A stretch of 64,000 bases of DNA from Anthoceros angustus (taxonomy: Eukaryota > Plantae > Anthocerotophyta), in contig VJWM01000259.1 in the NCBI GenBank assembly GCA_010909165.1, positions 1 through 64,000 on the forward strand, given 5' to 3'. Below are positions 1 to 54,276 of the stretch, piece by piece. Made by a program: the position numbers and the translations under genes. The notes below the pieces were generated by a model. It worked only from the letters and a program-made list of their open reading frames with translations, had not been told where the DNA came from and did not search any database. Each line of letters opens with the position of its first letter. The stretch's first letter is position 1.

Positions 1-135
1 ACTGGAGGTGCAACAAGGCGAGGAGGTCGCCATGGAACTGAGCTGGACCTAGAAACGAGGCTAGACCAGTGAATGGACGAAATAAACTGTCCGTTAATAG
101 AGGAAGAGCATGCAAACGGGCCGCGGGAAGAGAGA
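1..135 (+). mobile_element. Fragment of Athila-like gypsy family F (RNase H-integrase spacer region); left flank of element A
   Basis: Matches the reverse complement of ~46620-46745 (ggaggtgcaacaaggcgaggaggtcgccatgg...gaggaagagcatgcaaacgg). Confidence 0.8.
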
Positions 136-790
136 TGTCATGTCGTTGTCAGAGATGGGAAACAGAGCACCTAAGACTCTATGACCGGATATCGACTAGA
201 GCATCCCGGCATAAGCCCGAATGCCGAAATGACTAGATATCGACCGAGCATCTCGCATAAGCCCCGATGTCAAGTGCTTGATGATGTCATGTACATGGCC
301 CATGGATGGCCCGCATGACATGTATGCATGCATGTGTGCATGTATGCATGTATGCATGTGTGCCATGTATGCATACGTATGGAGATGAAGGATGACATGT
401 GATGTATGTGGACATGTGGTGTGATGTGTCATGGCATGCAATCTATATGCATGGTGTATGCATGTAAGGCGATGCTATGACGATATATAGATGATTTATA
501 TTAGAAAATACATAAAAATCATAAATCAAGGAAAAGGAATAGGCTGTTAAACACATAAAATATTATTATTTCAAGGCCAAGGAAAGTAGGATTATAAAGT
601 GCCCACCATCGATACGGTGGACACTTCATCGAGAACTCGGGGTTTTGCCTATATATGTAGGCACCCATGGATTCTTTGATGTTTGTCTTGTTCTAATAGA
701 CAGCCATACTGCCCCTCGTGTCTTTGTCTCCTAGAGGTTCTTGTGGTTCGTTGCATTGTCGTTGGGAGAATTTTCCTTGATTTCACCACA
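136..790 (+). repeat. Element A terminal repeat A1 (LTR-like, TATA-like cctatatatg near 649)
   Basis: Aligns by eye with 29970-30578 (e.g. cacctaagactctatga; gcccaccatcgatacggtggacacttcatcgagaactcggggttttgcctatat; ttgatttcacc). Confidence 0.85.
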
Positions 791-800
791 TCAACAATCC
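788..800 (+). promoter_or_regulatory. Putative self-priming primer-binding site of element A
   Basis: acatcaacaatcc is the exact reverse complement of ggattgttgatgt (30452-30464 in A2), which lies ~30 nt downstream of the TATA-like motif. No TGG-type tRNA PBS is present. Confidence 0.5.
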
Positions 801-5488: not shown

Positions 5489-5731
5489 GAAAATATGAGA
5501 ATTGGTGTAGATCAATTGCTATAAAATAACTACATTATTATATTTGTTAAAACAATGAGTATGTAAACCACAAGCAAAATAACTGAACTTAACCTAGGTG
5601 GGGTCAATAGACACACCCCTTCATAAGGACGTAACCCTAATGAACGGGCACCTAGACTTATAATAGCTATGAACGCATTCACTATATATGTACCAAAGCG
5701 AACCCTAATGAATTAACACTTGTTCTCATCA
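5489..5731 (-). repeat. Element B 3' LTR
   Basis: Near-identical to 12966-13207; preceded on the minus strand by PPT aacaagtgggag (5732-5743). Confidence 0.92.
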
Positions 5732-7049: not shown

Positions 7050-10000
7050 GGGCTTAGAAATGGCAGTGGGATTGCCTTCATGGCTTCCCATGCCAAGTAC
7101 TCTCATGTGTTTTCATGTAGCTCCTTTCCTAGGGGCTTAGTTAAAATATCTGGATTTATTTTCGGCGTAGGCACATACTCAAGGTGATATCTCGGACTTG
7201 ATGAGGTCACGTATAAAGTGATACTCAACTTCAACATGTTTAGTCACAGGTGAAAAAGGATTATGTGCTAAGCTCATTGACCCTTGGTTATCGTGTGGAT
7301 TGTGGTGCATGGAAGGGAATTCAAGTTCCTTGAACATTAGCTTGCACCAAGCTATCTCCTTTGTAAGTACCGATACTACCTTGATGCTAGATATAGACTC
7401 TGATGGGGCTTGCTAGACCAAACAATGGGTCCTCCACCAACATGACAACATAACCGGTGATTTCCTTGTGTCTATATCTCCATACAGAATCGGTGTAGAC
7501 ATCAAGATGTAAGGGCACTCTAGGTATGTGCTTGTACTTTACACCAATCTGTGAGTTCCTTTAGGTATCTGAAAACTCTCTTAACACCTCGATGTGTTTG
7601 CCACGGTTTTCCAGATCGTGATAAGACACTAGTAGAATAAGCTACTCGCCTAGTGGTATTAGCTGCATATATGAGTTTGCCTACGGCTGTCATGAGGACT
7701 AAACTCATCTTCGTTTTCTAATTGTGTATCGGGGCACATGGTTTTACTCATCTTCATCCACAAGGCAAAGGAGTTGCGGAAGGTTTAGCATCCTTCAATC
7801 CAAGTTGTTCAGCACTACTAAGAAGGTAACGTGGGCGTGTTAATGAGATAGTTCTATTCTTCTGTCACCAATTAGAATACCAAGACAGCTCTGTAAGGCA
7901 CCTAAGTGTGTCATTTCAAACTTGGTTGATAATAGCTTGTTTATGTCTTTGATGAAGGTGGGACTGTTACAAGCCAATATGAGGTCATCAACGTCGCTAG
8001 GTAACAAACCACCTCTTTTGTCCTGTGCACGTATAGGCTCCCATCTGAAACACACTCGACAAAGCCTAACGTTCGCAGCTCTTCATCCAGACAACATTCC
8101 ATTCAAGAGTGTTGTTTTAGACCATACAGTCTTAATTAAGCGTAAGACATAATCTTCTTTCCCTTTGACCTCGTATCCTTGTGGCTGTTGCATGTAAATT
8201 TCTGTATCCAGCTTTCCATGTAAGAAAGCTGTCTTTACATCAAACATGTCAAGCTTATAGTCATTGTGTGCTGCCAATGCACAGATAGTGCGGAATGTGG
8301 CCAGCTTAACAACAGGAGCATAAGTTTCAAAGTAGTCAAGGCCTGGTACTTGAGAAAAACCTCTTGCGACAAGCCCGGCTTTATAACGATCAAAGGTACC
8401 ATCGCTTGACCTTTAGCTTAAACACCCATTTGCAAGATCTTGGCTTGCGTCCACGGTAGTTTAGCTAATTCCCATGTTCCATTTTTGATCAAAGAATCAT
8501 ATTGATTGAATGGCCTTCTTCCATTCGGAGACGATTTAAGGCTTCTTCATAAGTGAGGTTCCACGGGATCAAGATCAAAATCAACGCATGTATGGAAGGT
8601 CCCCTAAAGTCTTGTGATTGATAATAATCGGTGCGTCATGCTTGCGGATAACGGCATAGGGAGAGAAGGTGGCTCTTCAATAGGAGCTGGAATATCCTCA
8701 AGGTCACTATCCTCAAGGTCACTACCTCAACATCTGCTGGAACAATGGGTTGATCGAGAGGGCATGAGAAGGTTGGTCACGAATATCGACAAAATCAAGT
8801 TCGATCTGCAGCTTCCTGGTTATCCTCATTATCATTTTGCTGGTTGTCTTCCCCTTTCGAGCAAACTCCTCATTAGGGTGATCGAGAAAAGTGATGTTAG
8901 GAAGAGCGGATAAATCAAAATCATCTAAAGAAGTGGGAGGAGCTCCCCGCGACTTTTGTTCATCAAAAGTAACACTGCGGGCATAAACCACAGTGTTCTC
9001 AGGTACATCGTATAATTTATATGCTTTAATACCTTCAGTGTAGCCTATCATAAGATATTTCTTGGCTTTAGCAGCTAACTTAGGACGTTTTTTCTTTGGG
9101 ATAAATGCATAAGCTATGCATCCAAAGGTTCTAAGGTGTAAGATAGCTGGTTTTCTACCAAAAAAGGCTTCATAAGGGGTCTGTCCTACAAGTGCATTAG
9201 TAGGCAGCCTGTTATGCAAGTACATCTTCTCATAAGGGCCTCTTAATAGCGAAGGCGGAGAAGCTTGATGAAGCATAGGAAGTCATTTCTGCAAGGTCGA
9301 TTCAATGTTCGCCACACCATTTTTGTGGTGTATAAACAACCTGAGTTGCCTTCCGATTCCTGTCGTACAAAAGATTGGAATTCACTAGAAGTAAATTCAC
9401 CCCATTGTCGATCGAGGGTTTTAACGCTTGCCATCCAGTGTTACTTCATATATTCTTTGAAAAGAAAAGCATTCACTTTTGGCTTTGAGGATATAAGCCA
9501 TGACAAACCTTGTTTTGTCATCCATGAATGTCGGAAATATTTGCCTCCACCGATTGAAGGTCGGAGAGAGGTCCACGGATGTCGTGAACCACTCAAGAAC
9601 TTGAAGCCACAGAGGGAGCTTTATTTTAAAAGCTGCGATGACGCGTTTGGATAAAACACGGGCTTCACAGAGAGGTAAAGGTGGCAATGTGCCAATTTTC
9701 CATCAACATACAGTCACTTTGCAAGTTTACGTAACTTAGCACTATGTGGGTGACCTAGGCGAGCGTGCCATAATTTAGTTTTGACTTCTAACTTACTAGT
9801 AGATTCTAGACTTAGAAGCTAAATGTGTTTGTCTTTGTATGGTCATCTGTGTCTGAAAGAGGTCATGTGAGGATGACCCATAAGCTAGGATCTTACGATG
9901 GTCAAAGGCATCAATGATCCTACACTCTGTAGGAGTAAATAGGATGTGAGTATTATTATCCATGTTGAGTCTCCTAACAGAGATGAGATTCCTAGTCATT

Positions 10001-11182
10001 TCTGGAACATAGTACACATCTTTCAGTATGAGTGTTATTCCTGAAGGGACTGGAATCTCTACAGTGCCTCGTCCTTGAGACACTAGTGATCTGTCATCAC
10101 TTAAGTAGACAAACTGATTGTCTACGAGCTTGTAAGTGACAAAAGCATTTTTGTCAAAGCATATGTGCGCTGTTGCACCTGTATCAAGGTACCACTCACT
10201 TACTGGTTTACCTTGTGTGTTTGCAGACAAGCAGGTGGGGTTAACAAGAGGATATGCAAACTTCCTAATCCCTACAGTAAGGGCAGAAGGTGAGCCTTGC
10301 TTTTTCACCACAACATGTGTCTCAGAAGTAGAGTTGCCCTCCTTGCGAGGTACTCCGGCCTGCTTCTTTCGACATTCATTTTCCCAATGTCCTGGAATCT
10401 GGCACCAGTGGCATTTTCCAGACTTCTTGGGTTTCTTCTGTGCTGTCCCTCGCCGTGAGCCGCCAGCACCTTGAAAGGTATTCTGTTTACCTTTGAAGTT
10501 GGGCCTTGCGCCCTTGTTTTTGTTTGTGGTGTAAAAGCCTGCGCTTACCGGCCTGCTTCTCCTCTTGTAGCCTCTTCCCGAGAAGAGCTCCCACTAACTC
10601 GAAAAAGTTGTCTGGTATTGTGACACTGCACCTTAGCAATTTTGAAGCAGTGAGAAGTATTGTAAGAGGTCACAAAATGTGACCAAGAGTCAGGTAGAGA
10701 CATCATGAAATACAGGGTTAGTAGCTCATCAGATAGAGCCTCCTGTGAAGCACTTTCCAACTTAGAAACAAGGGATCGAATGCCCAACATGTTTTTCAAT
10801 TGTCTCTCCTTCTCTCATTCTGCAATTTTGTATGTTGCGAAGTGTTGTCATCTGACTTGTGGTATTAACCCCTGCGTACAGCTCATGTAATCTGGTCCAT
10901 ATCTCAAAAGATGTATTACAACGTCCATGACATGTCGAGGTTAGTCCACTTCTCAACAGTCGTGCCTTCATCCTCACATACCAAGCTTCTTGTAGTTTCT
11001 TTTCGGAGGAAGAGGAGTAGCATCAGAGGCATCAAGTGTTGGACGTGACTCATCTCCTGCTATTCTCCACAACCTCTTACTTTGTAAGGCTCCTTTCATA
11101 CGCATGACCCAAATGTCATAGTCGGTTCCCCAAATCTATCTTTCTCCTTAAAGATATCACCGATTCTGATGGTGTCGACCAT
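7050..11182 (-). pseudogene. Element B copia gag-pol (gag, PR, INT, RT, RH), frameshifted
   Basis: GKCHWCQIPGHWENEC knuckle; EWYLDTGATAHIC; HLRTFGCIAY..YLMIGY; DVKTAFLHGKL..IYMQQPQG; DVDDLILA; TKHVEV. Confidence 0.92.
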
Positions 11183-11384
11183 TTGTTAGAATGTGATTAT
11201 TCTATCCTAAGCTAGGAGAATGGTGTATGCGACTTTGTAACCTATCCGGACAAGGTACAGAGAAAGGCAGGGAAGGAATATGATGCTCTGTTGCATCTTA
11301 GATGAGCTGAGCAGCCCTTTCTACAAAGGGTGATCAAATCTACCAACTTGAGGTAAATTGGCTGTTGATTTGCTAATCTATTTT

Positions 11385-12028
11385 CTATCCTTTGATGTCT
11401 AATCTCCCATCTGTTAAATGCATAAATGAGCATGAAGGGCGATGTGAATTTGGAGCATCAAAAGTGTGTTGCTTATACTTCTTGTTAGCACGTTTGCAAG
11501 CAACACCTCTCAGTGCAGGATTTGTTAGCAAAGCGGGCTTAAGCAAGGTAAGCAACTTGAAGTCCAAATGTCCTATTCGTTCCTTCAAATCTTGCAAGTC
11601 AACACTGACTTCACTATCTTGTGACGGATGCTCTGGAAACGCTCGTCAACATATTGTTGATGTGTTTCTATTCTTGCATTTAATTGTGACACACTAACAT
11701 GTGGTGATGTATGTGTTGTCAGGAAACCCCTAGGGTTACCGTTCACAGTAGGTGGAAGATTAATTTGATTCCTGGGTGGTGGAGCAAGCAACAAATGGCG
11801 CTGTTGTGGGAAGATCGCCTCAATCAGATTATTGAAGGAATCTCTCACAATCCGGGATAGTTCAGGCTGGTCTTGTGTTTGAAGAATCCAATCCAGGGTT
11901 TGGTGGTAGAGTGATTCTGCAAAATTCAGCCTGCCCTCTTGAATTCGTTGTTCTCTGTGAGCATTCCTCTGATGGATGCGCTCAGCAGGGCGTGGCCGCC
12001 ATTGTGGCCCGTCCATCAAATTGGCCAT
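11385..12028 (-). pseudogene. Extra ORF upstream of gag in element B (unknown, partly coiled-coil-like)
   Basis: 147-aa ATG-initiated ORF 11585..12028 overlaps a 70-aa ORF 11385..11597, suggesting a single frameshift; lies between the PBS and the gag ATG. Confidence 0.45.
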
Positions 12029-13145
12029 TCATTTGGCCAGCTTTTATATTTTGTTATTTTTCAAGAAACATTTGTAACTTTGTGAATGATTCTATAATTA
12101 AATATTTGCCAATTCTGGCAGTTGTTCTAGCGTGCCTAGTGCCAGATTGCTTGAGTGCAATTTGACAATGGATGCATTAGAACAACCTACTAGAAATGCA
12201 AATCTTCTAAATATAAAATCAAGAAAGCTATAAACCTATTTCTTGAAATATGTTCTTAAAGTAGTTTCTTTCAAGGAAAAGAACAATAAAACATATAAAC
12301 AAAATACATTGTCACCTCGAATGTGCAGATTTTTATGCATTCTCACAAATGCAATCTACACCTAAACATGGCTCGATACCATGAAATATGAGAATTGGTG
12401 TAGATCAATTGCTATAAAATAACTACATTATTATATTTGTTAAAACAATGAGTATATAAAACACAAGCAAAATCGAACTTAACCTAGGTGGGTCAATAGA
12501 CACACCCTTCATAAGGACGTAACCCTAATGAGCGGGCACCTAGACTTATAATAGCTATGAGCATTCCTCCGTTGGATGCGCTCGGTGACGTTTGTTGCCG
12601 TCCATCAAATTGGCCATTCATTTGGCCAGCTTTTGTATTTGTTATTTTTCAAGAAACATTTGTAACTTTGTGAATGATTCTATAATTAAATATTTGCCAA
12701 TTAGCGTTGTTCTAGCGTGCCTAGTGCGGATTGCTTGAGTGCAATCGACAATGGATGCACTAGAACAACCTACTAGAAATGCAAATCTTCTAAATATAAA
12801 ATCAAGAAAGCTATAAACCTATTTCTTGAAATATGTTCTTAAAGTAGTTTCTTAAAGGAAAAGAACAATAAAACATATAAACAAAATACATTGTCACCTC
12901 GAATGTGCAGATTTTTATATGCATTCTCACAAATGCAATCTACACCTAAACATGGCTCGATACCATGAAATATGAGAATTGGTGTAGATCAATTGCTATA
13001 TAAAATAACTACATTATTATATTTGTTAAAACAATGAGTATATAAAACAAGCAAAATAATGAACTTAACCTAGGTGGGTCAATAGACACACCCTTCATAA
13101 GGACGTAACCCTAATGAACGGGCACCTAGACTTATAATAGCTATG
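11990..13145. repeat. Tandem duplication (~585 bp) of element B leader, PBS and partial LTR
   Basis: ccgtccatcaaattggccattc...catggctcgataccatgaaatatgag...cttataatagctatga occurs twice. Confidence 0.85.
12951..12965 (-). promoter_or_regulatory. Element B PBS (initiator tRNA-Met type)
   Basis: Minus strand reads tggtatcgagccatg, i.e. TGGTATCAGAGC with one base lost; directly abuts the LTR. Duplicate at ~12367-12381. Confidence 0.85.
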
Positions 13146-13207
13146 AACGCATTCACACTATATATGTACCAAACTGAACCCTAATGAATTAACACTTGTT
13201 CTCATCA
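12966..13207 (-). repeat. Element B 5' LTR
   Basis: TG...CA termini; matches 5489-5731. Confidence 0.92.
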
Positions 13208-14803: not shown

Positions 14804-15221
14804 ATGTGCTAAGTGTGAGCGTGGCTCTTCTGAAGGTGGTCTTGATGTTGTCTTAAATTCACACACGGAAGGTGAAGCAGTTGTAGTCTGGATGAAGAAG
14901 GACACAAGATGCTTGGGCCAAATTCACAAAATGGGATCTTGCACATGCTAAGGCGAGAGAGTTGTTGCGAAGCGATTACTGCATGTGCAAGGGATTGTGA
15001 GAAGAGGAATTACAGACGTACAGAGGACTGACAAGCCCGACAAGGGTCTAATTCCTACTAGAAACGAGAGACAAAATTGGGCACACGTAGCTGCGAGGGA
15101 GCATCTCATTTTGGAAGAGGAACCTTTGCATGCACAGACTGACCGGGCGCGCGGATTGAGAATTCCTCACAATGTGTTTCTAAAGGTGGTTTCAGCTGTT
15201 TGGAGCTGGATAGAGAGCGCC

Positions 15222-15674
15222 ATGGTCAGGCCCGTTTCATACGAGCATAGGAGAAGGCGTAAAAGTCCTGCCCTATCCGCAATTACGGAAGGTGAAGCAT
15301 CAGAAGAGGAAGTGCCACCGTCACCCAAGCGCAAGAGGGGACGACCGCGCAAGCATCCTTTATCAGAGAGCATGGAAGCCCAGCAGGAGTTTGGCGTCAG
15401 CCGGTCTCAAATCAGGGAGCGGTCAGTCCGTGCTGACGGCAGCAGGAGAACACCACGCTCGCCTTTTCACGACAGAGCGGTGGAGCACACTGCCTACCTC
15501 CCAAGACAACTGCAGCGTACCTCCGATCCTACTCAGGTACAGCATGTATGTCGGCCTTCGGCAGGTGCTGAGAATTCCAGGGTTGCACCTAGGACTGGTA
15601 GTTCTCACCTGCCTGACCATGGAGGAGGTCTCGCCTGGCGAGGTGGAGATCTTGGAATCCGTGCCCTCCGAGGT
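15222..15674 (+). pseudogene. Element A 3' extra ORF, N-part, with AT-hook
   Basis: MVRPVSYEHRRRRKSP...PKRKRGRPRKHP; interrupted by element C at ...VPSEV. Confidence 0.6.
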
Positions 15675-15816
15675 TGTCGTGCGTCTTCATCATTTGTCGG
15701 TATGACGCAAAACCGACTTGCTCACACTTCTTCTGGTTTTCACCGGCCTTGGTGCAAAGGGAAAAGAGGGCTGCTTGTCGGGCCAAACAAAAGAAAAGTG
15801 CTAAAATTCTACCTAT
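15675..15816 (-). repeat. Element C repeat B2 (3' terminus)
   Basis: tgtcgtgcgtcttcatcatttgtcggtatgacgcaaaaccgacttg...aaattctacctat recurs at 16340-16474. Confidence 0.85.
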
Positions 15817-15821
15817 GCTGC

Positions 15822-16338
15822 AGACATGCACCGGTAGCTCACATGTCTTGATGCTCACTTGATTCGAGAAAATTAAAAGGCTGCCCTACAGGCCCTAAAT
15901 GATAAGTCCCATGAACCGCACATTACACACATTGCCACAATCTTGGCGCGCATACACACAATAGGTCTTTGCATTCTGACCTAGAAATTCGACAACAACA
16001 AAATTGCGTGTGTTCATTAGCGTTCCTCCTAGGGACTTGACAAGCCTTCCACCGCCGCCTTGGTCTTGTGCTCCATAGCCTTGCAACCACCTTGCGTCGT
16101 GATACCGATGGGCACCACACTCTTGGTGCGGCATCCTCTTGGATTGGAGTGATCATATCGCTTTCTCCCACGGTTGTGAGAGGAGACTGGCCCAAGCTTG
16201 GCCATTTTGCGGTTATTTCCGACTTTCTGTTTAAGGGCATTTTAGTAATTATCGGTACCAAGATTAAACTAAGCTAACAAAACCTACTTGCTAAGCCCTA
16301 GCTTCTAAGAGTTAGTTCCTAGCATCGGTTTCACGTCG
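15822..16338 (-). repeat. Element C repeat A2
   Basis: agacatgcaccgg...gttagttcctagcatc-gtttcacgtc matches 28322-28840. Confidence 0.88.
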
Positions 16339-16339
16339 G

Positions 16340-16474
16340 TGTCGTGCGTCTTCATCATTTGTCGGTATGACGCAAAACCGACTTGCTCACACTTCTTCTG
16401 GTTTCACCCGGCCTTGTGCAAGGGAAAAGAGGCTCTCGAGGCCAAACAAAAGAAAAGTGCTAAAATTCTACCTA
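16340..16474 (-). repeat. Element C repeat B1
   Basis: Copy of 15675-15816; separated from A2 by one base. Confidence 0.85.
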
Positions 16475-16715
16475 TACCCCGGTGATGGACAGGCGGGAAC
16501 AACAAAAGAAAGAAAGAACAAGGCATGCAGCGTCTTTGAAACAAATGCCACATGGAACCAAGAATGAGGCCAGCAAGAATCCTAGAACTCCTGCAGCCGC
16601 ATTCACAATGGAAAGCTTGGTGCGTCTAGCAAACAAAAAGGTCCACACAATTCCATCACCCACCAACATCACATGGATGTAAAATCCAAGCAGTCATCCA
16701 CAACAAGCATTTCCA

Positions 16716-16845
16716 GCACACTTTGCACAATACGAGTTGCTCGAGAGCGACTGCGGAGGGTAAGGCAAAACAAATGAAAACCCCATTGCATCCGTCACGG
16801 AGAAGCATAAGCTCCTCATCATCATCCTCCCACAAACCACGCGGG
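16716..16845 (-). pseudogene. PHD finger at the C-terminus of element C integrase
   Basis: (C)VVCGR-DDEELMLL(C)DGCNG(G)FHLFCLTPP...N(W)YCAKC. Confidence 0.85.
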
Positions 16846-16849
16846 TAGT

Positions 16850-19800
16850 GCGGTGGAATCCAGCTGTTGTTATCAACATGGGGTCCAAATTAGGTAAGTG
16901 GCGGGCGCCGGGTTCTTGGTATGGTGCAATAGTCCTACCATCGAGCCACCGCAAAATCAGCACTCCATTGGGCTAACTACCCCTCGGCACATGTCTCTGC
17001 ACAGATGTCCAAGGTGTCCACAGTTTGCCTTTGCAAGTATCGAAATCCCCAATGGAATTTCTTGACTTGGGCTGAATGACCATGCTGGTGTATCTACCGT
17101 AAGGAATCCGGTCTTGAGCTATGTTGAGGTTGGCCATAGCCATTGGCATAACACGAAATAGCGTGCCCGCTCCCCAATCACTCGAGCCCATGTGGCGGGA
17201 TCATCAATTTGTACCACCTCCTGCATCTTCTTAGCTATTGTACTCGGCGGCTCACGACCAAAAAGCAAGTAAGGGAGAAGTGTGCCTGCATGTTTACTCA
17301 TGCGGTAGCCCATAGCGATGTAGGGCGAGAGGTCCCAATCCTCCTTTCCACGCAAGCATAACTTTCTCAGCCCCTTTTGATGGTGCGGACCATCCTTTCA
17401 GCCAGCCATCGGCGAGGATGGTCCCCTAGTCACTTTGTGATCGATAAGCGCAACATCTAAAAGGTCACGAAATTCCTCTAAACTCGAGCCACAGTCGATC
17501 GGGCACTCGGCACTACTACCAAAAGCGGCTAAGCACGTGTGCAAAAATGCAGGGCGTGCTTCGAGGACTTATCGATAGAGCCACAACCTCCACCCATTTG
17601 GAGAAATGCTCCATCATGACAAGTATGTAGACATTGCCTCTCGGCGTCCTAGTCAATTCTCCAATGAGGTCGCGGGACCGGTGAAAGAACAAGCCCATGA
17701 TGGGCGGAGGGTGGAGAACAAGGTCTTTGCATAGTAAAGGAGGCCTTGACTCGGTCACAAGGCTCCGGCCACTGTTCTACTTTTGGTTGTGCATCCCATA
17801 CCAATAAAAATGAGGTGTGAGCGGTGTAAGTCCTTCACACCAAAGTGACCATGTCGTGCACACGGCGTATCGTCGACCCTATCACGGTGGTGGCACCAAG
17901 CGCTCGACACCATTGCCCGACTTGCGAATCATGTAGCCATCACGCCAATAGTCTTTATTCGTCTGACTGCTGCCTGTTCTTTTCGGTGGGTCGGGCCTCG
18001 TCCATGCCACAGTGGTCGGGCACTCGGCACTAAAAGCGGCTAAGCACGTGTGCAAAAATGCAGGGCGTGCTTGAGGACTTATCGATAGAGCCACAACCTC
18101 CACCCATTTGGAGAAATGCTCCATCATGACAAGTATGTAGACATTGCCTCTCGGCGTCCTAGTCAATTCTCCAATGAGGTCGCGGGACCGGTGAAGAACA
18201 AGCCCATGATGGGCGGAGGGTGGAGAACCGGGTCTTTGCATAGTAAAGGAGGCCTTGACTCGGTCACAAGGCTCACGCCACACTGTTCACTTTGGTTGTG
18301 CATCCCATACCAATAAAAATGAGGTGTGAGCGGTGTAAGTCCTTCACACCAAAGTGACCATGTCGTCGTGCACACGGCGTATCGTCGACCCTATCACGGT
18401 GGTGGCACCAAGCGCTCGACACCATTGCCCGACTTGCGAATCATGTAGCCATCACGCCAATAGTCTTTGTTCATGACTGCTGCACCTGTTCTTTTCGGTG
18501 GGTCGGGCCTCGTCCATACGTGCAAATCTTGAAGAGCATTCACATCTTCCCAAATGTCCTTTGCATTGTTTGAGCACAAACAATCATCCAAGGCGGTCAT
18601 GGCAACAAGGGCTGCAAGCGCGGCATGACATCGCACCAATCTCCTCCTCATGGTCCTGCCTAGCCTCGGTGACATCACTGCACGTCCGGATTTCTAGATA
18701 GCATGTCGCATTTTGGTGTGTCACTCCTGTGCTCCACAAGGAAGTCATAATCTTGAAGTATCATGGCCCAGCCGACTTCCCACTCAATTTTGTGTTAGTC
18801 ATCAGCCATTTCAATGGTGATCGATAAGCGCAACATCTAAAAGGTCACGAAATTCCCTCTAAACTCGAGCCACAGTGGTCGGGCACTCGGCACTAAAAGC
18901 GGCTAAGCACGTGTGCAAAAATGCAGGGCGTGCTTGAGGACTTATCGATAGAGCCACAACCTCCACCCATTTGGAGAAATGCTCCATCATGACAAGTATG
19001 TAGACATTGCCTCTCGGCGTCCTAGTCAATTCTCCAATGAGGTCGCGGGACCGGTGAAGAACAAGCCCATGATGGGCGGAGGGTGGAGAACCGGGTCTTT
19101 GCATAGTAAAGGAGGCCTTGACTCGGTCACAAGGCTCACGCCACACTGTTCACTTTGGTTGTGCATCCCATACCAATAAAAATGAGGTGTGAGCGGTGTA
19201 AGTCCTTCACACCAAAGTGACCATGTCGTCGTGCACACGGCGTATCGTCGACCCTATCACGGTGGTGGCACCAAGCGCTCGACACCATTGCCCGACTTGC
19301 GAATCATGTAGCCATCACGCCAATAGTCTTTGTTCATGACTGCTGCACCTGTTCTTTTCGGTGGGTCGGGCCTCGTCCATACGTGCAAATCTTGAAGAGC
19401 ATTCACATCTTCCCAAATGTCCTTTGCATTAGGTGAGCACAAACACAATCATCCAAGAAGGGTCATGGCAACAAGGGCTGCAAGCGCGGCATGACATCGC
19501 ACCAATCTCCTCCTCATGGTCCTGCCTAGCCTCGGTGACATCACTGCACGTCCGGATTTCTAGATAGCATGTGCATTTTGGTGTGTCACTCGGCTGTGCT
19601 CCAAGTCATAATCTTGAAGTATCATGGCCCAGTGAGCCGACTTCCCACTCAATTTTGTGTTAGTCATCAGCCATTTCAATGGCGATGATCGATCACTAAA
19701 GCTGCGACCATACAAATATGGGCGGAGTGGCAAGCGGCCCAAACGCATGAGGCACTCCCCTCATAGCTGTAATTGGCCTCCGCTCGGTTATTACTCCTCG

Positions 19801-22420
19801 AGGCATAAGCGATCACGCGCTCCTTGCCTCATCCTCTTGTGCAAGCACCGCCCAAGTCGCATCCAATCGGTGTGTAACACAAATGGCTTGCTAAAATCGG
19901 CCTAGCCATGGTTGGTGACCTGGTCAATTGCTCCTTCAACATGTCAAAAGCTTGCTGCGCCAACTCATCCATGCCCATTCCACGTCTTTCCTCAACATGT
20001 CATTCAAGGGTTTCGCTGAAATTCGAATGTAAACCTATAATAGTTGCATAACCCAAGAAAGGCATGAAAGGCGACACGTTGGTGGGCTCCTTCACTGCAG
20101 GATAGCCTGTACCTTGGCTGAGTGGGGCATCACCCGTTAGGCACGATTCTGACCTAAATATGCCAGTGTTCATTCCAAATTCACATTTGGACGGGTGACA
20201 TGTGAGCTCGCCTTCCTTAGCCTACGGAACAGCTCCTCTAAGTGTGCCAAGGCATGTTTACTCATGCGGTAGCCCATAGCGATGTAGGGCATGAGGTCCC
20301 AATCCTCCTTTCCACGCGCAAGCATAACTTTCTCACCTTTTGATGGTGCGGACCATCCTTTCAGCCATCGGCGAGGATGGTCCCTGCTAGTCCTTTGTGA
20401 TCGATAAGCGCAACATCTAAAAGGTCACGAAATTCCTCTAAACTCGAGCCACAGTGGTCGGGCACTGCAGCCTACCAGCGGCTAAGCACGTGTGCAAAAA
20501 TGCAGGGCGTGCTTGAGGACTTATCGATAGAGCCACAACCTCCACCCATTTGGAGAAATGCTCCATCATGACAAGTATGTAGACATTGCCTCTCGGCGTC
20601 CTAGTCAATTCTCCAATGAGGTCGCGGGACCGGTGAAAGAACAAGCCCATGATGGGCGGAGGGTGGAGAACCGGGTCTTTGCATAGTAAAGGAGGCCTTG
20701 ACTCGGTCACAAGGCTCACGAGCCACATTCTCGCACTTTGTGCATCCCATACCAATAAAAATGAGGTGTGAGCGGGCGTAAGTCGCTTCACACCAAAGTG
20801 ACCATGTCGTCGTGCACACGGCGTATCGTCGACCCTATCACGGTGGTGGCACCAAGCGCTCGACACCATTGCCCGACTTGCGAATCATGTAGCCATCACG
20901 CCAATAGTCTATTGACCGCTGCGCACCTGTTCTTTTCATTTGGGTCGGGCCTCGTCCATATACTTGCCGTCTTGAAGAGCATTCACATCTTCCCAAATGT
21001 CCTTTGCATTAGGGTGAGCAACACAATCATCCAAGGCGGTCATGGCAACAAGGGCTGCAAGCCGACATGACATCGCACCAATCTCCTCCTCATGGTCCTG
21101 CCTAGCCTCGGTGACATCACTGCGGTCTTGTCCGGATTTCTAGATAGCATGTCGCATTTTGGTGTGTCACTCCTGTGCTCCACAAGGAAGTCATAATCTT
21201 GAAGTATCATGGCCCAGTGAGCCGACTTCCCACTCAATTTTGTGTTAGTCATCAGCCATTTCAATGGCGATGATCGATCACTAACCAAGCTGACCATACA
21301 AATATGGGCGGAGTGGCAAGCAACCCAAACATGCGAGGCACTCCCCTCATAGCTCGTGTGGCCTCCGCTCGGTTATTACTCCTCGAGGCATAAGCGATCA
21401 CGCGCTCCTTGCCCCACTCATCCTCTTGTGCAAGCACCGCCCAAGTCCCGACGGCTCAATCGTGTGTAACACAAATGGCTTGCTAAAATCGCCTAGCCAT
21501 GGGGTGACCTGGTCAATTGCTCCTTCAACATGTCAAAAGCTTGCTGCGCCAACTCATCCATGCCCATTCCACGTCTTTCCTCAACATGTCATTCAAGGGT
21601 TTCGCAATTCTGAAATTAGATGTAAACCTATAATAGTTGCATAACCCAAGAAAGGCACGCAAGGTGACACGTTGGTGGGCTCCTTCACTGCAGGATAGCC
21701 TGTACCTTGGCTGAGTGGGGCATCACCCGTTAGGCACGATTCAGGACCTAAATATGCCAGTGTTCATTCCAAATTCACATTTGGACGGGTGACATGTGAG
21801 CTCGCCTTCCTTAGCCTACGGAACAGCTCCTCTAAGTGTGCCGGTGATCCTCAAAGGCGATCTTGTGAACCCGGCCGTCGTCGATATAGCACAACAAGTT
21901 GGCACATCCACCAAAACGGATCCATCACCCGGAAAAGTGGCGGGTGCGTTCTTGAACCGAATGGCATCACCAGCCATTCCACATTGGGACCCGTGAAGCG
22001 CGGTCTTCTTGATGTCCTCTTACGCAGCGGAATCGTTAAAACCACATCGAAGGTCCAAAGTAGAGAAGAAGCAGGCAATCTTTGTCAAATATCTCCTCTC
22101 GGCATTGGGTACCGATCCTGATGGCGGCATTGATGGGACGATAGTCCCCACATCCGTTCTCCGTCCACGTTGGGCATCCTTCTTTAGCGGCATATGATTC
22201 TTTGCGCCGTCCATTTGGATAGCCGGATAAGCCACCTTCAAGAAGCTCACGACACCTAGCATCGACCATCTCCCTCCGTCTTGCTCAACTGTAGCGGCGC
22301 GGTAGATGGGCTCACTGGCTATCGTTGATCACTGATCACATTGCGGTGAGGTCCTTCATGGTAAAACAAAGCATCACGATACTTGAGCGAGGAGAGTGTG
22401 GATGCGTGTCTTACGCCCAT
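16850..22420 (-). pseudogene. pol: Element C RT, RNase H and DDE integrase, with several internal tandem duplications
   Basis: CGDYRPINA..EEIFD; EWLVMPFG; HPSKCEFG; PLKWLMTNTKLSGKSAHWAMILQDYD; HGHFGVKR; ELTRTPRGNVYILVMMEHFSKWVEVVAL (present four times); WDLSPYIAMGYR. Confidence 0.9.
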
Positions 22421-22669: not shown

Positions 22670-23515
22670 CACGTGAGTGCGTGAACATCCATGGCTCGCC
22701 TAGAGCACGCTTGGTGTATGTAGTAGGGCTCAGCAGAATGGGGTGAAAGCCCATAATGCGTTCGCTCCGGCCGGTGGGTTCCTCCTGCTGCGTGTTGGTG
22801 TTCAAATGCTGTCCCTCGACCACGTAAGCGAATGAACGGAAAGCTAACCGGCATGGGCGGTGCCGGCGTGTGTTGGTTTTGAACCAAGGCGCACGCTCAC
22901 TTGGCGGTAACAAGCTGGGCTGGTGATGATCCTCCGGCGATTGAAGGCAAGGACGGGTCCCTGTGTGCCAAAGCAGTGCGGCGAGGCGGGGACCAAGTTG
23001 GTCGATAATTCCTCGAGCGGTGAGCAAAGCGCCCACAGGCCGCATCTAACGGGATGGGAGGCCCGGATGTCTTGAACCGCCATGTCCTGTTGCACATGTG
23101 CTCTGCATCAAATTGCGGTGTATTCTCAAGGAGGTAAGCACACTGGTTGTATTCTTGAGCCCATGTGAGGACTGATGTAGATCCTGAGCATTACGGCGTG
23201 CATCTTGTAGACCAGCTCCATGCCCGGCTTGGGAGAACCCCAGCATTCCGGCCGGCAATCACCATATCCACATTTCCCAAGGCACGAATGTGGCCTTCTT
23301 GAATGTAACGGACATCCTGCGGTAGGCGGTGAAAGCCTTGATAGGCCTCCAAGGCGATTCTTTGTGGAAAACGCTCATGCAGCCCTTGCGGCTGAACTCT
23401 GCGATACGGCGTCTTTGTGACATCATTGTCACAATACACGTATCGGCATATGGGCGATCCATCATCAAGAGAGCCTCCGGCCCGATCAGATCCCGCCAAA
23501 GAGTTCTACCACCGT
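22670..23515 (-). pseudogene. Element C C5-cytosine DNA methyltransferase domain (frameshifted)
   Basis: VVELFGGI-SG(L)EALL (I); ICRYVYCDND (II); LPQDVRYI (III); VDMVIAG(W)EC(Q)GFSQAGHGAGLQDAR (IV/V); AYLLENT (VI); PLDAACG-FAHRSRNY(W)TNL (VIII); EEPT..ERIMGF (IX); RALG-AMDVHAL (X). Confidence 0.9.
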
Positions 23516-24499: not shown

Positions 24500-27400
24500 G
24501 CCTCATCTCTGTCTGCATTGGCTCTGTCTTTGTCACCGGAGTGAAGATGTATCCTGCCCCGTAATGGGATGGCGTTCAGTGGCAAGGGCATAAAGGATTG
24601 AGGCATTGCTGCCCTTGCTCCTCATTGCACAGTGATGGGCCACGTTTGCTAACACGATGTCAAGCCGGCCAAGATTAATGGCATGCCCAACCCATGTAGC
24701 GGCACATCTTCCCTTAGCTTGTCACGAACATGAGGCTGCATCAACACCTCATGTGGGTGTCCATAATCTTCTCATGTTTCATCGAGAACCACTCTGCGAC
24801 CCTGCGAGCTTAGCTCCACCGCTTCTTGAGGCTGGTTGTAAGCGTGCCCACTGTCTTTAAGGCAAAACCGTGGCCTCCGGCGTCATCTTGTCGCGTTCGC
24901 AACCTTGGCTTTCGCTTTCTCCTCATTGCTTGCTCTTAGAGTCCCAGTGCGGAGTTGCTCTATTGTCTTGATGCTAGTAGCATCTCCGGTGATGCCGACC
25001 CATCTCCTCTCGGGTGAAGTTGAAAGCACACGGTGCTCACATGACCATTCTTTTGACAATGAGTGCAAAGAGGCCTTCTGGGCACTTGCAATTCGGTGAG
25101 ATGTGCTCGGGGCGCCACAATGGTTGCACATGGTGGCCGGTATGTGACTGCGATCCTTGTTGCTCCGCCTTGGTGGCTTAGGTGTAGTCCTTGAAGAAGT
25201 TCCCCGTGACACCTTGAAAACATGCCTTGATAATGGTGGAAGGCCTTGGAATGCTTGGAGGAGAAGGCGGAGTAAGCAATCTCTTTCTTCTCCGCTTCCT
25301 CATGTACTGCTGCAAAGTATAGGCATCGCCATACTTATCCACAAGTGAGGACAACGGTGGAAATGAAACGGTGATCACCCTCAAGGTGTGAGGAATTTCT
25401 CCGCTTCTTGGTGCAGTGAGCATGCAGGTCCCATCTCGCAGCTTTTGCAGCCCTACGGAACACATCGGGTGTCTCCTTTCCGGCGTGCAAAGCTTGCGCT
25501 CCATAATCTTCTCGGGAGTCTTGAGTGGAAAAGCCTTCTCGAGGATCTTCATGAACTCTTCCACAGGTTGGCATATTTGGGGTGTGTATGAATTCATCAA
25601 TCCCTGCGTGGTATTGTCCTCTGTGGCCGTGAGAGGAGGCATCACGGTGGGTGGCGGCCTGCGTGGGCTGTTGTCCTCTGTGGCCGTGAGAGGAGGCATC
25701 ACGGTGGGTGGCGGCAGTGGCGGCGATTACTGCAGATATGGCTCTGGTGGGCACTTGCAATTCGGTGAGATGTGCTCGGGGCGCCACAATGGTTGCACAT
25801 GGTGGCGTAGCGTGCGATCCTTCTGTTGCTCCTTGGTGGCTTAGGCTGGTGTAGTCCTTGAAGAAGTTCCCCGAGGCACTTGCTTGAAAACATGCCTTGA
25901 TAATGGTGGAAGGCCTTGGAATGCTTGGAGGAGAAGGCGGAGTAAGCAATCTCTTTCTTCTCCGCTTCCTCATGTACTGCTGCAAAGTATAGGCATCGCC
26001 ATACTTATCCACAAGTGAGGACAACGGTGGAAATGAAACGGTGATCACCCTCAAGGTGTGAGGAATTTCTCCGCTTCTTGGTGCAGTGAGCATGCAGGTC
26101 CCATCTCGCAGCTTTTGCAGCCTCACGGAAACACATCGGGTGTCTCCTTTCCGGCGTGCAAAGCTTGCGCTCCATAATCTTCTCGGGAGTCTTGAGTGGA
26201 AAAGCCTTCTCGAGGATCTTCATGAACTCTTCCACAGGTTGGCATATTTGGGGTGTGTATGAATTCATCAATCCCTGCGTGGTATTGTCCTCTGTGGCCG
26301 TGAGAGGAGGCATCACGGTGGGTGGCGGCCTGCGTGGGCTGTTGTCCTCTGTGGCCGTGAGAGGAGGCATCACGGTGGGTGGCGGCAGTGGCGGCGATTA
26401 CTGCAGATATGGCTCTGGTGGGCACTTGCAATTCGGTGAGATGTGCTCGGGGCGCCACAATGGTTGCACATGGTGGCGTAGCGTGCGATCCTTCTGTTGC
26501 TCCTTGGTGGCTTAGGCTGGTGTAGTCCTTGAAGAAGTTCCCCGAGGCACTTGCTTGAAAACATGCCTTGATAATGGTGGAAGGCCTTGGAATGCTTGGA
26601 GGAGAAGGCGGAGTAAGCAATCTCTTTCTTCTCCGCTTCCTCATGTACTGCTGCAAAGTATAGGCATCGCCATACTTATCCTAAGTGAGGACAACGGTGG
26701 AAATAAACGGTGATCACCCTCAAGGTGTGAGGAATTTCTCCAGCTTCTTGGTGCAGTGAGCATGCAGGTCCCATCTCGCAGCTTTTGCAGCCCTCTGACA
26801 CATATGTCTCCCTTTCCGTGCAAAGCTTGCCTCATCTTCTCGGGAGTCTTGAGTGGAAAAGCCTTCTCGAGGATCTTCATGAACTCTTCCACGGTTGGCA
26901 TATTTGGGGTGTGTATGAATTCATCAATCCCTGCGTGGTAATTGTTGTCCTCTGTGGCCGTGAGAGGAGGCATCACGGTGGGTGGCGGCTGGTGGCGGCG
27001 ATTACTGCGGATATGGCACGGTGGGTGTCACTTGACCGACTTGGCATTGTAGGCCATCTGCGGTGCCCTTGGAATAATGGATTGGAGGCAGAGTAGTTGA
27101 GGTCGGCTCGCTTGGTGGGCTTCATACAAATCCGGGGCCTCATCACCATGTATCTTGATATGTTCGAACATGTAGAGGTGGTTATCGCGCCCATGTTTGA
27201 ACTTGACCCTACTAATTGCCTCATTGACTATGACCTAAAATCCCTCAACGATTGTGTTCTGGCCCGAAATTTCACCGCCATTTGGCCCTCCTTCCATCGT
27301 GTCGAATCACGACGGGTCCTCTTGCCACAGGTCTTACATGATAAATCTCGGGGCCACGAGCCACGAGGAAAGGCCTAATCCCAGCCCTCCGGTGCACTCC

Positions 27401-27640: not shown

Positions 27641-28321
27641 TGAGTCAAGGAAGCCAGCATCAATTGTCGGTGCGGAGGAAAACCTTAGCTGCGAATCGGT
27701 GTGAAACACAAACACACCAATCGCAACTCGGATCCTCCCCTGACCTCAAGCTTTTCAGATGCCTCACTCCTGCGAGAATCCTCAGCCTGTTCAGCGACTC
27801 ACTCCTCGTGCTCGTGCTGTACAAGACCCGGCACCTACCCGCAGCAAGAGAAGTGTTGGCTGCACATAGCCAAATTCCCCAACTAAAACCCTTAGTGATC
27901 AACTTCTCCCGGGCATTCAGTCCACTGTTTCTCACTCGAAAGTAGACAAAAATGATACCAACGGATTCGTCTCAACGAGGCAAACAAGATGGTATGCAAA
28001 TTGAAAGCAGCCGACTCGTGTGGCGATCGCTATGAGCTCTGGACGGCCGTGGAAACTTGCTGCGGTTGAGACATGGGAGGACTCAAAAATTATGAGAGGG
28101 CCTTGAGTTGTGCGGCGCAGCGGGCACACAGCTGGCCTGGAAAATCCCCCAGCACCCACGTAAAACCCAACAAGTCCTGCGACAATCGACCATGCGAAAC
28201 CCTAGCAAAATGCACACCACGTCAAGCCCATAGGCGGGGTCAAGCTGAGCCGTGTAAGTGGACTCCTCCATGCTCCAGGCCAAGGCAGAATCAAGTTGAA
28301 TGCTTCTCGGCGGTTGTCAAT

Positions 28322-28840
28322 AGACATGCACCGGCTCACATGTCTTGATGCTCACTTCCGATTCGAGAAAATTAAAGGGCTGCCCTACACGGGCTGCCTA
28401 GAGCTGATAAGTCCCGAACACGCATTACACACATTGCCACAATCTTTGAGCGCATACACACAATAGTCTTTGCATTCTGACCTAGAAATTCGACAACAAC
28501 AAAATTGCGTGTGTTCTAGCGTTCCTCCTAGGGACTTGACAAGCGCCTTCCACAACGCCTTGGTCTTGTGCTCCATAACCGCCTTGCAACCACCTTGCGT
28601 CGTGATGCAGTGGGCACCACACTCTTGGTGCCGCATCCTCTGGATTGGAGTGATCATGTCGCTTTCTCCCACAGGTGAGAGGGAGACTGGCCCAAGCTTG
28701 GCCATTTTGCGGGTTATTTCCGACTTTCCTGTTTAAGGGCATTTAGTAATTATCGCACTAACCGATTAAACTAAGCTAACAAAACCTACTTGCTAAGCCC
28801 TAGCTTCTAAGAGTTAGTTCCTAGCATCAGTTTCACGTCA
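28322..28840 (-). repeat. Element C repeat A1 (5' terminus)
   Basis: Matches 15822-16338; begins TGACGTG on the minus strand. Confidence 0.88.
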
Positions 28841-29706
28841 GGGTGTCCTATGACTGCCGTCAATTCAAGCAGAGTTTGCAGGACAGGATGGGACCCCAAT
28901 TTGTGGATGACGAAGATGCGGGTAAGTGGAGCATCTTCTACTCCCTTGATATGACCGGGCAGTATTCACACAAGTTATGGCCAGGCTTCACATCTTCCCA
29001 TCAGATGTTGAGGAGCATCATGCCGGTTGTAGGGTGGAGCATTATCCTGGAATCGGGATTTATTTGAGCTCCAGCCGGGGTCCTGGCGTTTGCCACAGAC
29101 TGGACAAGCTATCTGAGAGGGTGCATGGAGGAAGTTGCAGCATCACTTCCAAATGCATCAATGGTTTGATGGGATGAGGTTGCCAGCAGAGTTCGTTGAC
29201 TGGGGAGACACATACCCTCGTCGCTTGATTTTTCTCAAGGAGTGGTTTTGAGTTTTCCACCATCTGCGGACAGGGCATCATGTGGTAGGGTGGCCTCGGC
29301 AGTTTTACATTCTGACCAACAAGCTGAGGACCCCTCATGTTGATCAACGTGCTTGGACTCGAGAGGAGAAGGGCCTGTCTCGAGACTCGCCCGGCCCGCA
29401 CATCTACACTTCATGGTTACCGTTTTCAATTACCCAACACAGGAAGCTTACAGTCGGGACATGGATGCTGGACAGGATGGCGTACATCCTGTTTTCAGCC
29501 AGTTCGATGCACAGAAGCGCTTTGTGGAAGAACAGGTTGACAGTCTCTCTGGATTCAAGCTGCCCAGTGAGATTACGATTAAGCAGGAGGCACAAGAAGA
29601 CCCATCAGATGATGAGGATCTAGAAGATGACGCCATTCCTCCTCCTCGGGCAGAACCACCGTCAGTGTTGGACAAGCTACGTTCTCGCTGGTGGGGACGT
29701 TGGTAA
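28841..29706 (+). pseudogene. Element A 3' extra ORF, C-part
   Basis: SYDCRQFKQSLQDRMGPQFVDDEDAGKWSIFY ... acidic tail EAQEDPSDDEDLEDD...RWWGRW*; in frame with the end of 15222-15674 once C and one TSD copy are removed. Confidence 0.55.
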
Positions 29707-29790: not shown

Positions 29791-29968
29791 TTCTGGTCCC
29801 TCTCTTAGGCAAACCCAGGCCTCTTTAGTTCGCCATAGGCCAAGGACAAATTAAACTAGGATTATTGCTCTGGGCCAAAGGCCGAGGCCGCCATGAGTAG
29901 GCCGATGCTTAGAAAGGACTTAGCTTTGTGAGGCTAGGTAGGCATGCGCAGCCTGCGGCGCTGTGACA
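29791..29968 (+). repeat. Element A repeat B1
   Basis: tctcttaggcaaacccag...ggccaaggacaaattaa...cttagaaaggacttagctttgtg...gctgtgaca recurs at 30580-30786. Confidence 0.8.
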
Positions 29969-29969
29969 T

Positions 29970-30578
29970 TATCATCTTTGTCGCTGTATGGGAAAGCAGG
30001 CACCTAAGACTCTATGATATTGATATCGACCGGAGCATCCGGCATAAGCCACGATCTTTGAAGTGTGATGATGTCATGTACATGGTCCATGGATGGCACA
30101 TGACATGTATGCCATGTCGCATAAGTGCCATGTATGCATATGCGTGTGGAGATGAAGGATGACATGTGATGCATGTGGACATGTGGCGGTGATGTGTCAT
30201 GGCGCATGCAATCTATATGCATGGTTATGCATGTAGGTACGGTCTATGACGCGTATAGGTAGCATTTATATTAGAAAATACATAAAAATCGTAAATCAAG
30301 GAAAAGGGCGAATAGAATTTGTTAAACACATAAATATTATTATTTGAAGGCCAAGGAAAGTAGGATTATAAAGTGCCCACCATCGATACGGTGGACACTT
30401 CATCGAGAACTCGGGGTTTTGCCTATATGTGGGCACCCACCATGGATTCTTGGATTGTTGATGTTTGTCTTGTTCTAATAGACAGCCATACTTCGTCCCT
30501 GCTGTGTCTTTGTCTCCTAGAGGTTCTTGTGGTTCGTTGCATTACCAGGTTGGGAGAATTTTCCATCTTGATTTCACC
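29970..30578 (+). repeat. Element A repeat A2
   Basis: Diverged copy of 136-790; separated from B1 by one base. Confidence 0.85.
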
Positions 30579-30579
30579 T

Positions 30580-30786
30580 GTTCGCGGTCCTGGGTCTACC
30601 TCTCTTAGGCAAACCCAGTCTCTTTTTGTAGCCTTGCCCTTGGCCATAGGCCAAGGACAAATTAAGGCTAGGATTATTGCTCCTGGGCCAAAGGCCAAGG
30701 ACGCCACAGGCAGGCTGATGCTTAGAAAGGACTTAGCTTTGTGGCGAGGCTAGGTAGGCATGCAGCTATGCGGCTGCTGCGCGACA
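30580..30786 (+). repeat. Element A repeat B2 (3' terminus)
   Basis: Copy of B1; ends GCGACA and is followed directly by copia gag sequence. Confidence 0.8.
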
Positions 30787-41560: not shown

Positions 41561-41961
41561 TCAGACTATCAATTTCCATGTATTCGAGGATGAAGCCAAA
41601 CACCAATCTAATCCTAGAACATGGAAACACTTGAGTCCGCAGACGATGTTACCTCTAGAACACGCTTCCTCCTTCCTTTGGCATGTACAATCTTGAGCGG
41701 ACAATTCCCTTAAGCGAGTCCTTGTATTCGTCCTTTGTCGACTCTCATGCGTCCTCCTCATCTCTATTCTGCCCCGGACTTTAGGCGCGCCCAGAGATGG
41801 AGGAAAGGCGGATTCTACACATTGGAAGGTGACAAGGTGCAGGAAGGGATGGAGCAAAAGGAGGCGAGGGCCAATCCCAAGGACATGTCACCACCCGGCA
41901 GATAAGGACTAAGAATGGTCAATGACCATAAATGAGCTTTGAGAGCAGGAAGGATAGGTGG

Positions 41962-54261: not shown

Positions 54262-54272
54262 CAACGGCGCCA
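54262..54272 (-). promoter_or_regulatory. Element F1 PBS (TGGCGCCGTTG, Athila-type)
   Basis: Minus strand reads ...ctaccaca tttt tggcgccgttgg. Confidence 0.8.
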
Positions 54273-54276
54273 AAAA

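What the first reader, a model, noticed from the sequence alone, without database searches (positions are those of the whole stretch)
15670..16474. Split-direct-repeat 3' end (B1-A2-B2) of element C, bounded by a target-site duplication
On the minus strand the order is A1 (28840-28322), coding region, B1 (16474-16340), A2 (16338-15822), B2 (15816-15675). B is absent from the 5' end. The outer ends are TG..CA, the flanks are GAGGT and G-GGT, and removing the element restores the host reading frame. B2 is therefore the true terminus of a unit inserted in integrase fashion. No polypurine tract precedes A2.
Basis: partly seen in the sequence, partly recalled or inferred. Interest (0 to 1): 0.87.

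Follow-up and report, generated by a model that had tools for sequence, protein, structure and literature searches.

The report
Gypsy retrotransposon with split terminal repeats
This jumping gene carries its end repeats in the split order A…B-A-B, as do its relatives, and the positions of its copying signals suggest that its DNA copy likely has its two ends joined and is then cut open inside the repeat before it inserts.

Summary
The A1…B1-A2-B2 order is real and B2 is the true 3' end. Element C is a Ty3/gypsy retrotransposon (RT, RNase H, DDE integrase, C5-methyltransferase remnant; no tyrosine recombinase found). The same order recurs in the host element A of this window and in 10 distinct related metagenome loci, so it is a family trait, not an assembly error. 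It is in print once, as a figure-legend remark on KnitGypsy-Dnmt3 of Klebsormidium. Two corrections: the target duplication is probably 4 bp, not 5, and a G-run polypurine tract exists, in front of B1 (20 of 22 loci). Relatives also show a strict CA-NN-TG junction between B1 and A2 (12 of 13), a likely self-priming site right after A1, and a variable A2|B2 joint, in one case carrying 134 extra bases through the polypurine tract. Best reading, inferred: reverse transcription makes B-A-internal-B-A; the two ends are joined; integrase cuts the CA-NN-TG site inside the repeat. The permuted product that a symmetric cut predicts was not seen (0 of 12), which remains unexplained.

The parts
28841..28844 (-). 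5' copy of the target-site duplication (ACCC), 4-bp reading
28322..28840 (-). A1: 5' terminal repeat, starts TG, does not end in CA
28536..28547 (-). Candidate self-primer site inside A1 (11 of 12 bases complementary to the sequence just after A1); suggestive only
   Evidence: score reached by 4 of 120 control windows; duplex energy not significant
28309..28321 (-). Candidate self-priming primer-binding site directly after A1; no TGG tRNA-type site
24963..27027 (-). gag-like region with a CCHC knuckle motif; contains head-to-tail duplications that look like assembly errors
   Evidence: motif read directly; duplications; no Pfam hit
22900..23505 (-). C5 cytosine methyltransferase remnant, frameshifted
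   Evidence: tblastn to P0018 E 1.7e-7; profile of 55 homologues E 3.7e-11 and 1.3e-6
21124..22275 (-). Reverse transcriptase and RNase H, frameshifted
   Evidence: linked HSPs E 1.4e-36; Pfam RT_RNaseH E 1.6e-5
17155..20921 (-). Integrase (H2C2 finger and DDE core by homology), present in several tandem, partly duplicated pieces
   Evidence: against P0001 and P0018, which carry PF00665 and PF17921; duplications
16689..16823 (-). PHD-finger-like C-terminal piece
   Evidence: aligns to P0001 residues 1209-1255; P0001 carries PF00628
16477..16480 (-). G-run (polypurine-tract-like) one base before B1
   Evidence: same position in 20 of 22 related loci
16340..16475 (-). B1, ends in CA
16335..16341 (-). 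B1|A2 junction: CA, two bases, then the start of A2 (the T of TG is missing or substituted in this noisy copy)
   Evidence: CA-NN-TG in relatives
15822..16337 (-). A2
15817..15821 (-). Five extra bases at the A2|B2 joint
15675..15816 (-). B2: 3' terminus, ends in CA
15671..15674 (-). 3' copy of the target-site duplication (ACCT)
136..787 (+). Host element A: A1, starts TGTCATG
788..800 (+). Host element A: 13-base site perfectly complementary to a site inside its A2 copy (30452-30464); likely self-priming site
   Evidence: 0 of 120 controls
29799..29968 (+). Host element A: B1, ends in CA; no G-run before it
29970..30578 (+). Host element A: A2
30599..30786 (+). Host element A: B2, ends in CA, preceded by 20 extra bases

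Best explanation
Element C is a Ty3/gypsy retrotransposon whose terminal repeats are split as A…B-A-B, and it likely inserts from a DNA copy whose two ends are joined and which integrase then cuts open at a CA-NN-TG site inside the repeat. Steps: (1) shown: the repeat order, TG…CA outer ends, a short target duplication, a G-run before B1, a 2-base spacer at B1|A2. (2) inferred: transcription starts inside A1; the RNA's own 5' end pairs with the site just after A1 and primes the minus strand, as in Tf1. (3) inferred: the plus strand starts at the G-run before B1, so ordinary reverse transcription gives a linear B-NN-A-internal-B-NN-A, whose working LTR is B-NN-A. (4) inferred: the A end is joined to the B start (the A2|B2 joint), before integration as a 2-LTR-type circle or afterwards by host repair. 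(5) inferred: a staggered cut after CA on both strands of CA-NN-TG gives two ends with the 2-base 5' overhang that integrases use; strand transfer makes a 4-bp duplication and A1-internal-B1-A2-B2. The uncut B1|A2 junction is the template for the next round.
For: Architecture: B-A-B 3' ends in 10 distinct loci, full form in 2 of them (L013, L018), plus window element A. The window's assembly-type duplications are mostly head-to-tail (10 of 11 listed pairs have gaps of -12 to +1), B1/B2 are 523 bases apart. Plus-strand start: run of 4 or more G within 10 bases before the first B in 20 of 22 loci against 386 of 28,786 background windows. Junction: 2-base spacer in 12 of 13 distinct loci, CA-NN-TG exactly in 10. 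Minus-strand start: the bases right after A1 are complementary to a site inside A in four families: 12 of 12 in L007, 13 of 13 in window element A (A2 copy), score 16 in L023 (each 0 of 120 controls), 11 of 12 in element C (4 of 120); in the largest family the best hit lies 31-35 bases behind a TATA box in 9 of 11 A copies. Joint: flush in 7 of 11 loci, extra bases in 4 (+3, +6, +18, +134), also +5 in C and +20 in A; in L019, B2 begins 134 bases upstream of the G-run, at a second G-rich site, and includes the tract. Duplication 13 of 16 bases at 4 bp. Precedent for internal cleavage: HIV-1 integrase cuts the palindromic 2-LTR junction (PMC1905944, abstract; PMC4372172, abstract).
Against: A circle has two equal junctions, so cutting should also give A-B-A-internal-B; none of 12 5' ends is preceded by B. 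Self-priming is weak in element C itself and in 7 of 16 A copies (21-72 of 120 controls reach the score); RNA duplex energies were clearly low only for L023 (2 of 125), not for C (35 and 12 of 125). Element A has no G-run before B1 and a 1-base spacer as assembled. Most relatives belong to two families, so counts are not independent. No transcript ends, cDNA or circles were observed.
Confidence: 0.6

Rival explanations
1. RNA-templated regeneration as proposed for PAT/Ngaro elements (model recalled, not read here): the RNA runs from A1 into B2, the internal B1-A2 copy bridges the two cDNA ends, the A2|B2 joint is copied from RNA, and integrase replaces the recombinase at the cut.
For: Same repeat order as PAT/Ngaro (PMC4157794 passages). 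7 of 11 joints are flush. B is T-rich and could hold the poly(A) site (read).
Against: It gives no reason why A should end exactly at a self-complementary site and B should start exactly at the G-run. L019 shows B2 copied from sequence upstream of B1. B1/B2 distance within elements (0.129) is not above that between elements (0.135-0.150), and no 5'-to-3' gradient was seen (0.120 and 0.127), though copies are old.
Confidence: 0.22
2. Ordinary LTR element with LTR = A+B whose present form arose after insertion by deletion and recombination (5' LTR truncated, partial tandem LTR at the 3' end).
For: A2+B2 together read as a normal TG…CA LTR. Tandem LTR structures are common in plants (PMC11899658 passages).
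Against: The same breakpoints recur in independent insertions of several families; none of 12 5' ends carries B after A1; the G-run precedes B1, not A2.
Confidence: 0.07
3. B2 is an assembly artefact of the noisy long-read-type sequence.
For: The window has many local duplications at 79-97% identity, including inside this element; no reads could be laid.
Against: Those duplications are head-to-tail; B1/B2 are not. B2 ends at CA next to the target duplication. Independent contigs show the same order.
Confidence: 0.04
4. A tyrosine-recombinase element (PAT/Ngaro type) that inserts by recombination at the B|A junction.
For: Repeat order; some likeness between the 5' flank and the B1|A2 junction in element C.
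Against: Integrase homology throughout; no recombinase hit in 114 fragments of element C or in 30 ORFs of L023; target duplications differ among insertions.
Confidence: 0.02

Closest known systems
KnitGypsy-Dnmt3 of Klebsormidium nitens (de Mendoza et al. 2018, PMC5890265; passages, Discussion and text supplements seen, figure not seen)
   Same: Gypsy pol with a cytosine methyltransferase; the Fig. 4c legend says the repeat structure is that of a DIRS element (given in Fig. 1 as A-coding region-B-A-B). Klebsormidium proteins fall in the same tree clade.
   Different: The passages seen give no termini, priming sites, junction, duplication or mechanism. Element C is a different family; identity to the published element itself was not tested.
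PAT, TOC, Ngaro and VIPER tyrosine-recombinase retrotransposons (PMC4157794, passages)
   Same: A1-B1-A2-B2 split direct repeats.
   Different: Element C has a DDE integrase, TG…CA ends and a target duplication; no recombinase was found.
Tf1/sushi and Tcn1 self-priming Ty3/gypsy elements (PMC4600332 and PMC6317226, passages)
   Same: Primer-binding site complementary to a site in the 5' repeat instead of a tRNA; G-rich tract.
   Different: Those have two complete TG…CA LTRs; here the integrase ends lie inside the stretch bounded by the two priming sites.
Retroviral 2-LTR circle junction cleavage (PMC1905944, PMC4372172, abstracts); IS3/IS911 circle junctions (recalled)
   Same: Two att ends abutted in a palindrome and cut by a DDE enzyme.
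   Different: In HIV it is a side route at a junction made by end-joining; here the att junction is encoded in the element and would be the only route.

Membership tests
Ty3/gypsy LTR retrotransposon | pol order RT-RNase H-integrase | tested here: met
Ty3/gypsy LTR retrotransposon | TG…CA element ends and short target duplication | tested here: met
   (4 bp likely)
Ty3/gypsy LTR retrotransposon | Two complete LTRs, each TG…CA | tested here: not met
   A1 lacks B and does not end in CA; none of 12 5' ends has B
Ty3/gypsy LTR retrotransposon | Polypurine tract directly before the 3' TG | tested here: not met
   G-run precedes B1, not A2
KnitGypsy-Dnmt3-like elements | C5 methyltransferase domain in pol | tested here: met
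   Pfam PF00145 E 7.1e-9 in relative L023
KnitGypsy-Dnmt3-like elements | A…B-A-B repeats | tested here: met
KnitGypsy-Dnmt3-like elements | Same RT-RH-IN clade as Klebsormidium elements | tested here: inconclusive
   Shared clade with two Klebsormidium proteins (support 0.945), but these are not shown to be KnitGypsy-Dnmt3 and the window rows have long, noisy branches
KnitGypsy-Dnmt3-like elements | Methyltransferase of the Dnmt3 class and active | not tested
   no DNMT tree or assay
PAT/Ngaro (tyrosine-recombinase) | Split direct repeats | tested here: met
PAT/Ngaro (tyrosine-recombinase) | Tyrosine recombinase gene | tested here: not met
   no hit; fragments are short and noisy, L023 is cleaner
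Tf1/Tcn1 self-priming group | Site after the 5' repeat complementary to the RNA 5' end | tested here: inconclusive
   clear in L007, L015, L023 and element A, weak in element C; RNA starts unknown
Chlamyvir or Tcn1 clade (REXdb) | Phylogenetic placement with reference elements | not testable with these tools
   no reference sequences held; homologues carry PHD fingers and come from green algae, streptophyte algae and a liverwort

The most novel reading that the evidence does not exclude
A whole green-lineage clade of Ty3/gypsy retrotransposons has moved its integrase attachment sites into the middle of its LTR, so that an end-joined, 2-LTR-circle-type DNA, long seen as a dead end, is the obligatory substrate for productive integration.
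Probability: 0.45. Interest if true: 0.85.

Novelty: new member of a known kind. Interest (0 to 1): 0.66.

Why it matters
The architecture is in print only as one legend sentence, without a mechanism in the passages seen. If the inferred cycle is right, an LTR retrotransposon depends on joining its cDNA ends and on internal cleavage by integrase, a reaction known in retroviruses as a side route. It would also be a second, independent origin of split direct repeats, with integrase instead of recombinase. In practice, LTR finders that demand TG…CA on both LTRs (the setting used for REXdb) would likely miss or mis-end these elements, and the A-internal-B form would take the place of the usual products. 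The predictions are directly testable by sequencing extrachromosomal DNA and by an integrase cleavage assay.

Tried and rejected
No whole genome is held, so other copies of C could not be checked. No sequencing run was listed, so no reads were laid. Contigs behind five loci are not held. A junction pattern in viral contigs gave 108 matches, treated as chance for a 14-base pattern and not examined. L015's apparent B/A pairs are a nested ordinary LTR with a TGGTATCA site and were dropped; its real ends come. L021 and L024 duplicate L018 and L022 and were counted once. Hairpins in B are not above shuffles (z -0.83 to +0.79 in 7 of 8 folds; -2.48 for element A's B2), so hairpin priming was dropped. 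A gradient of B1/B2 or A1/A2 divergence was sought and not found. My first reading of a 10-base spacer in element A was wrong. The host ORF fragment 29344-29703 found no homologue. Literature: 'KnitGypsy' occurs in 1 paper; searches listed no paper on an integrase element with split repeats beyond it, judged from listings, plus passages of the Chlamydomonas v6 preprint and the 2026 DAM-LTR preprint (abstract and term search). Subscription journals, Repbase reports, theses and bioRxiv supplements were not searchable and may hold a description.

Full report
Observation. Self-alignment of the window shows A1 (28840-28322) matching A2 at 90% and B1 (16475-16340) matching B2 (15816-15675) at 92%; B has no other copy. 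The element starts with TG and ends with CA. The sequence is noisy: differences are mostly indels and the window holds many local duplications. Ten of 11 such pairs that I listed are head-to-tail (gap -12 to +1 bases; the other 89), whereas B1 and B2 lie 523 bases apart, so B2 is not of that kind. No genome and no reads were available.

What the element is. Pfam on frameshifted fragments found only RNase H pieces. A homologue search with an integrase fragment found P0001; a second search listed 120 of 744 relatives, with RT, RNase H, integrase, usually a PHD finger and often a C5 methyltransferase, named ones from Klebsormidium, Closterium, Calypogeia and Tetraselmis. tblastn places methyltransferase, RT, RNase H, integrase and a PHD-like piece in this order in element C; a profile of 55 homologues confirms the methyltransferase (E 3.7e-11). 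No tyrosine recombinase was found. The host is element A, a related gypsy element on the plus strand, and it has the same order: A1 136-787, B1 29799-29968, A2 29970-30578, B2 30599-30786.

Relatives. A metagenome scan returned the best 80 of 575 loci. Ten distinct loci end in B-A-B, two of them with A1 in view; L023 shows A1…B1-A2 up to the contig end; L035 and L036 show the G-run and junction only. Seven loci end exactly at the first B with no A2, three more end there truncated; in L025 this A-internal-B form has a target duplication. Such short forms could come from integration, B-by-B recombination or assembly collapse. In a FastTree tree of 104 RT-RH-IN rows (loci with fewer than 250 aligned positions left out), all these loci, both window elements and the Klebsormidium and Closterium proteins fall in one clade (support 0.997), apart from L071, which has two ordinary direct repeats. 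The window rows are long branches.

Signals. (a) A run of four or more G lies within 10 bases before the first B in 20 of 22 loci, against 1.3% of background windows; element C has GGGG there, element A does not. (b) The B1|A2 junction has a 2-base spacer in 12 of 13 loci; 10 read CA-NN-TG exactly, and 10 of the 12 spacers are GC or its C-to-T/G-to-A decay, so the likely original is the palindrome CAGCTG (the decay is inference). Element C reads CA-CC then GACGTG, one base short. (c) The bases after A1 hold no TGG tRNA site but are complementary to a site inside A: perfectly in L007 (12) and element A (13), strongly in L023, each 0 of 120 controls; 11 of 12 in element C, 4 of 120; weak in 7 of 16 A copies. 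In the largest family the hit lies 31-35 bases after a TATA box in 9 of 11 copies. Duplex energies supported this clearly only for L023. (d) The A2|B2 joint is flush in 7 of 11 loci and has +3, +6, +18 or +134 bases in four; in L019 the extra 134 bases are the sequence upstream of B1, starting at a second G-rich site and running through the tract. (e) The duplication is best read as 4 bp: 13 of 16 bases in four elements, P about 3e-5 at 0.3 per base, against 7 of 20 at 5 bp. Element C alone cannot decide.

Mechanism. B begins where the plus strand should begin and A ends where the minus strand should begin, so by established reverse-transcription logic the linear cDNA is B-NN-A-internal-B-NN-A. 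Its free ends are not TG or CA; both integrase ends sit together at CA-NN-TG, where a staggered cut after each CA gives the 2-base overhangs of processed ends. To obtain A-internal-B-A-B the free A end must be joined to the free B start. The variable joint and L019 fit an end-joining step. HIV integrase can cut such a palindromic junction (PMC1905944, PMC4372172; abstracts). All of this is inference. One prediction fails: a circle has two equal junctions, yet 0 of 12 5' ends show the permuted form. An asymmetry is needed, for instance use of the junction that becomes double-stranded first, with joining done by host repair; this is untested. I give 0.95 to the architecture being real and family-wide and 0.6 to the mechanism.

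Comparison with what is known. De Mendoza et al. 2018 (PMC5890265; passages, Discussion, text supplements) state in a legend that KnitGypsy-Dnmt3 has DIRS-like repeats with gypsy domains. That is the same kind of element, so I file C as a new member of it. The passages seen give no mechanism, and my searches found no follow-up; sources outside the library were not searchable. Split repeats otherwise mark PAT, Ngaro and VIPER (PMC4157794, passages); self-priming marks Tf1 and Tcn1 (PMC4600332, PMC6317226, passages). Two earlier AI notes on other genomes reach similar readings; I saw them after my own tests and do not count them as support.

Verdict. Real, family-wide, noted once in print, with an unusual and testable replication cycle. 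Interest 0.66.

Noticed in passing
window 1-135 and 30787 onward: Element A's two flanks belong to different elements: the left matches gypsy sequence at 45444-45557, the right reads as Copia gag, and no target duplication matches. A is chimeric here, by recombination or misassembly.
   Followed up: partly
window, at least 11 places (e.g. 11955-13154, 31180-33543, 39398-41965, 44411-46783, 58504-61059): Head-to-tail duplications of 200-1300 bases at 79-97% identity, most overlapping by 9-12 bases: likely stitching errors of a noisy long-read assembly.
   Followed up: partly
window 5490-13207: A Copia element on the minus strand with ordinary LTRs and a TGGTATC-type primer site is inserted in the RNase H region of element A.
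   Followed up: no
window 44400-54300, minus strand: Another gypsy family with a TGGCGCC tRNA-type primer site near 54270; it seems to have ordinary LTRs and would be an internal control.
   Followed up: no
window 14950-15674 and 28845-29703: The region of element A between integrase and B1 holds long open frames with no Pfam or homologue hit; possibly an extra ORF.
   Followed up: partly
L025 5072-13992; L008, L012, L014, L027, L029, L033: A short form ending at the first B is about as common as the full form; in L025 it keeps a 4-bp duplication.
   Followed up: partly
L019 10908-11210: B2 starts 134 bases upstream of the polypurine tract at a second G-rich site, a likely aberrant plus-strand start frozen into the joint.
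   Followed up: yes
L038 about 2975: A more distant relative has the ordinary layout, G-run then one base then TG, and lies outside the split-repeat clade; useful as an outgroup for the origin of the trait.
   Followed up: no
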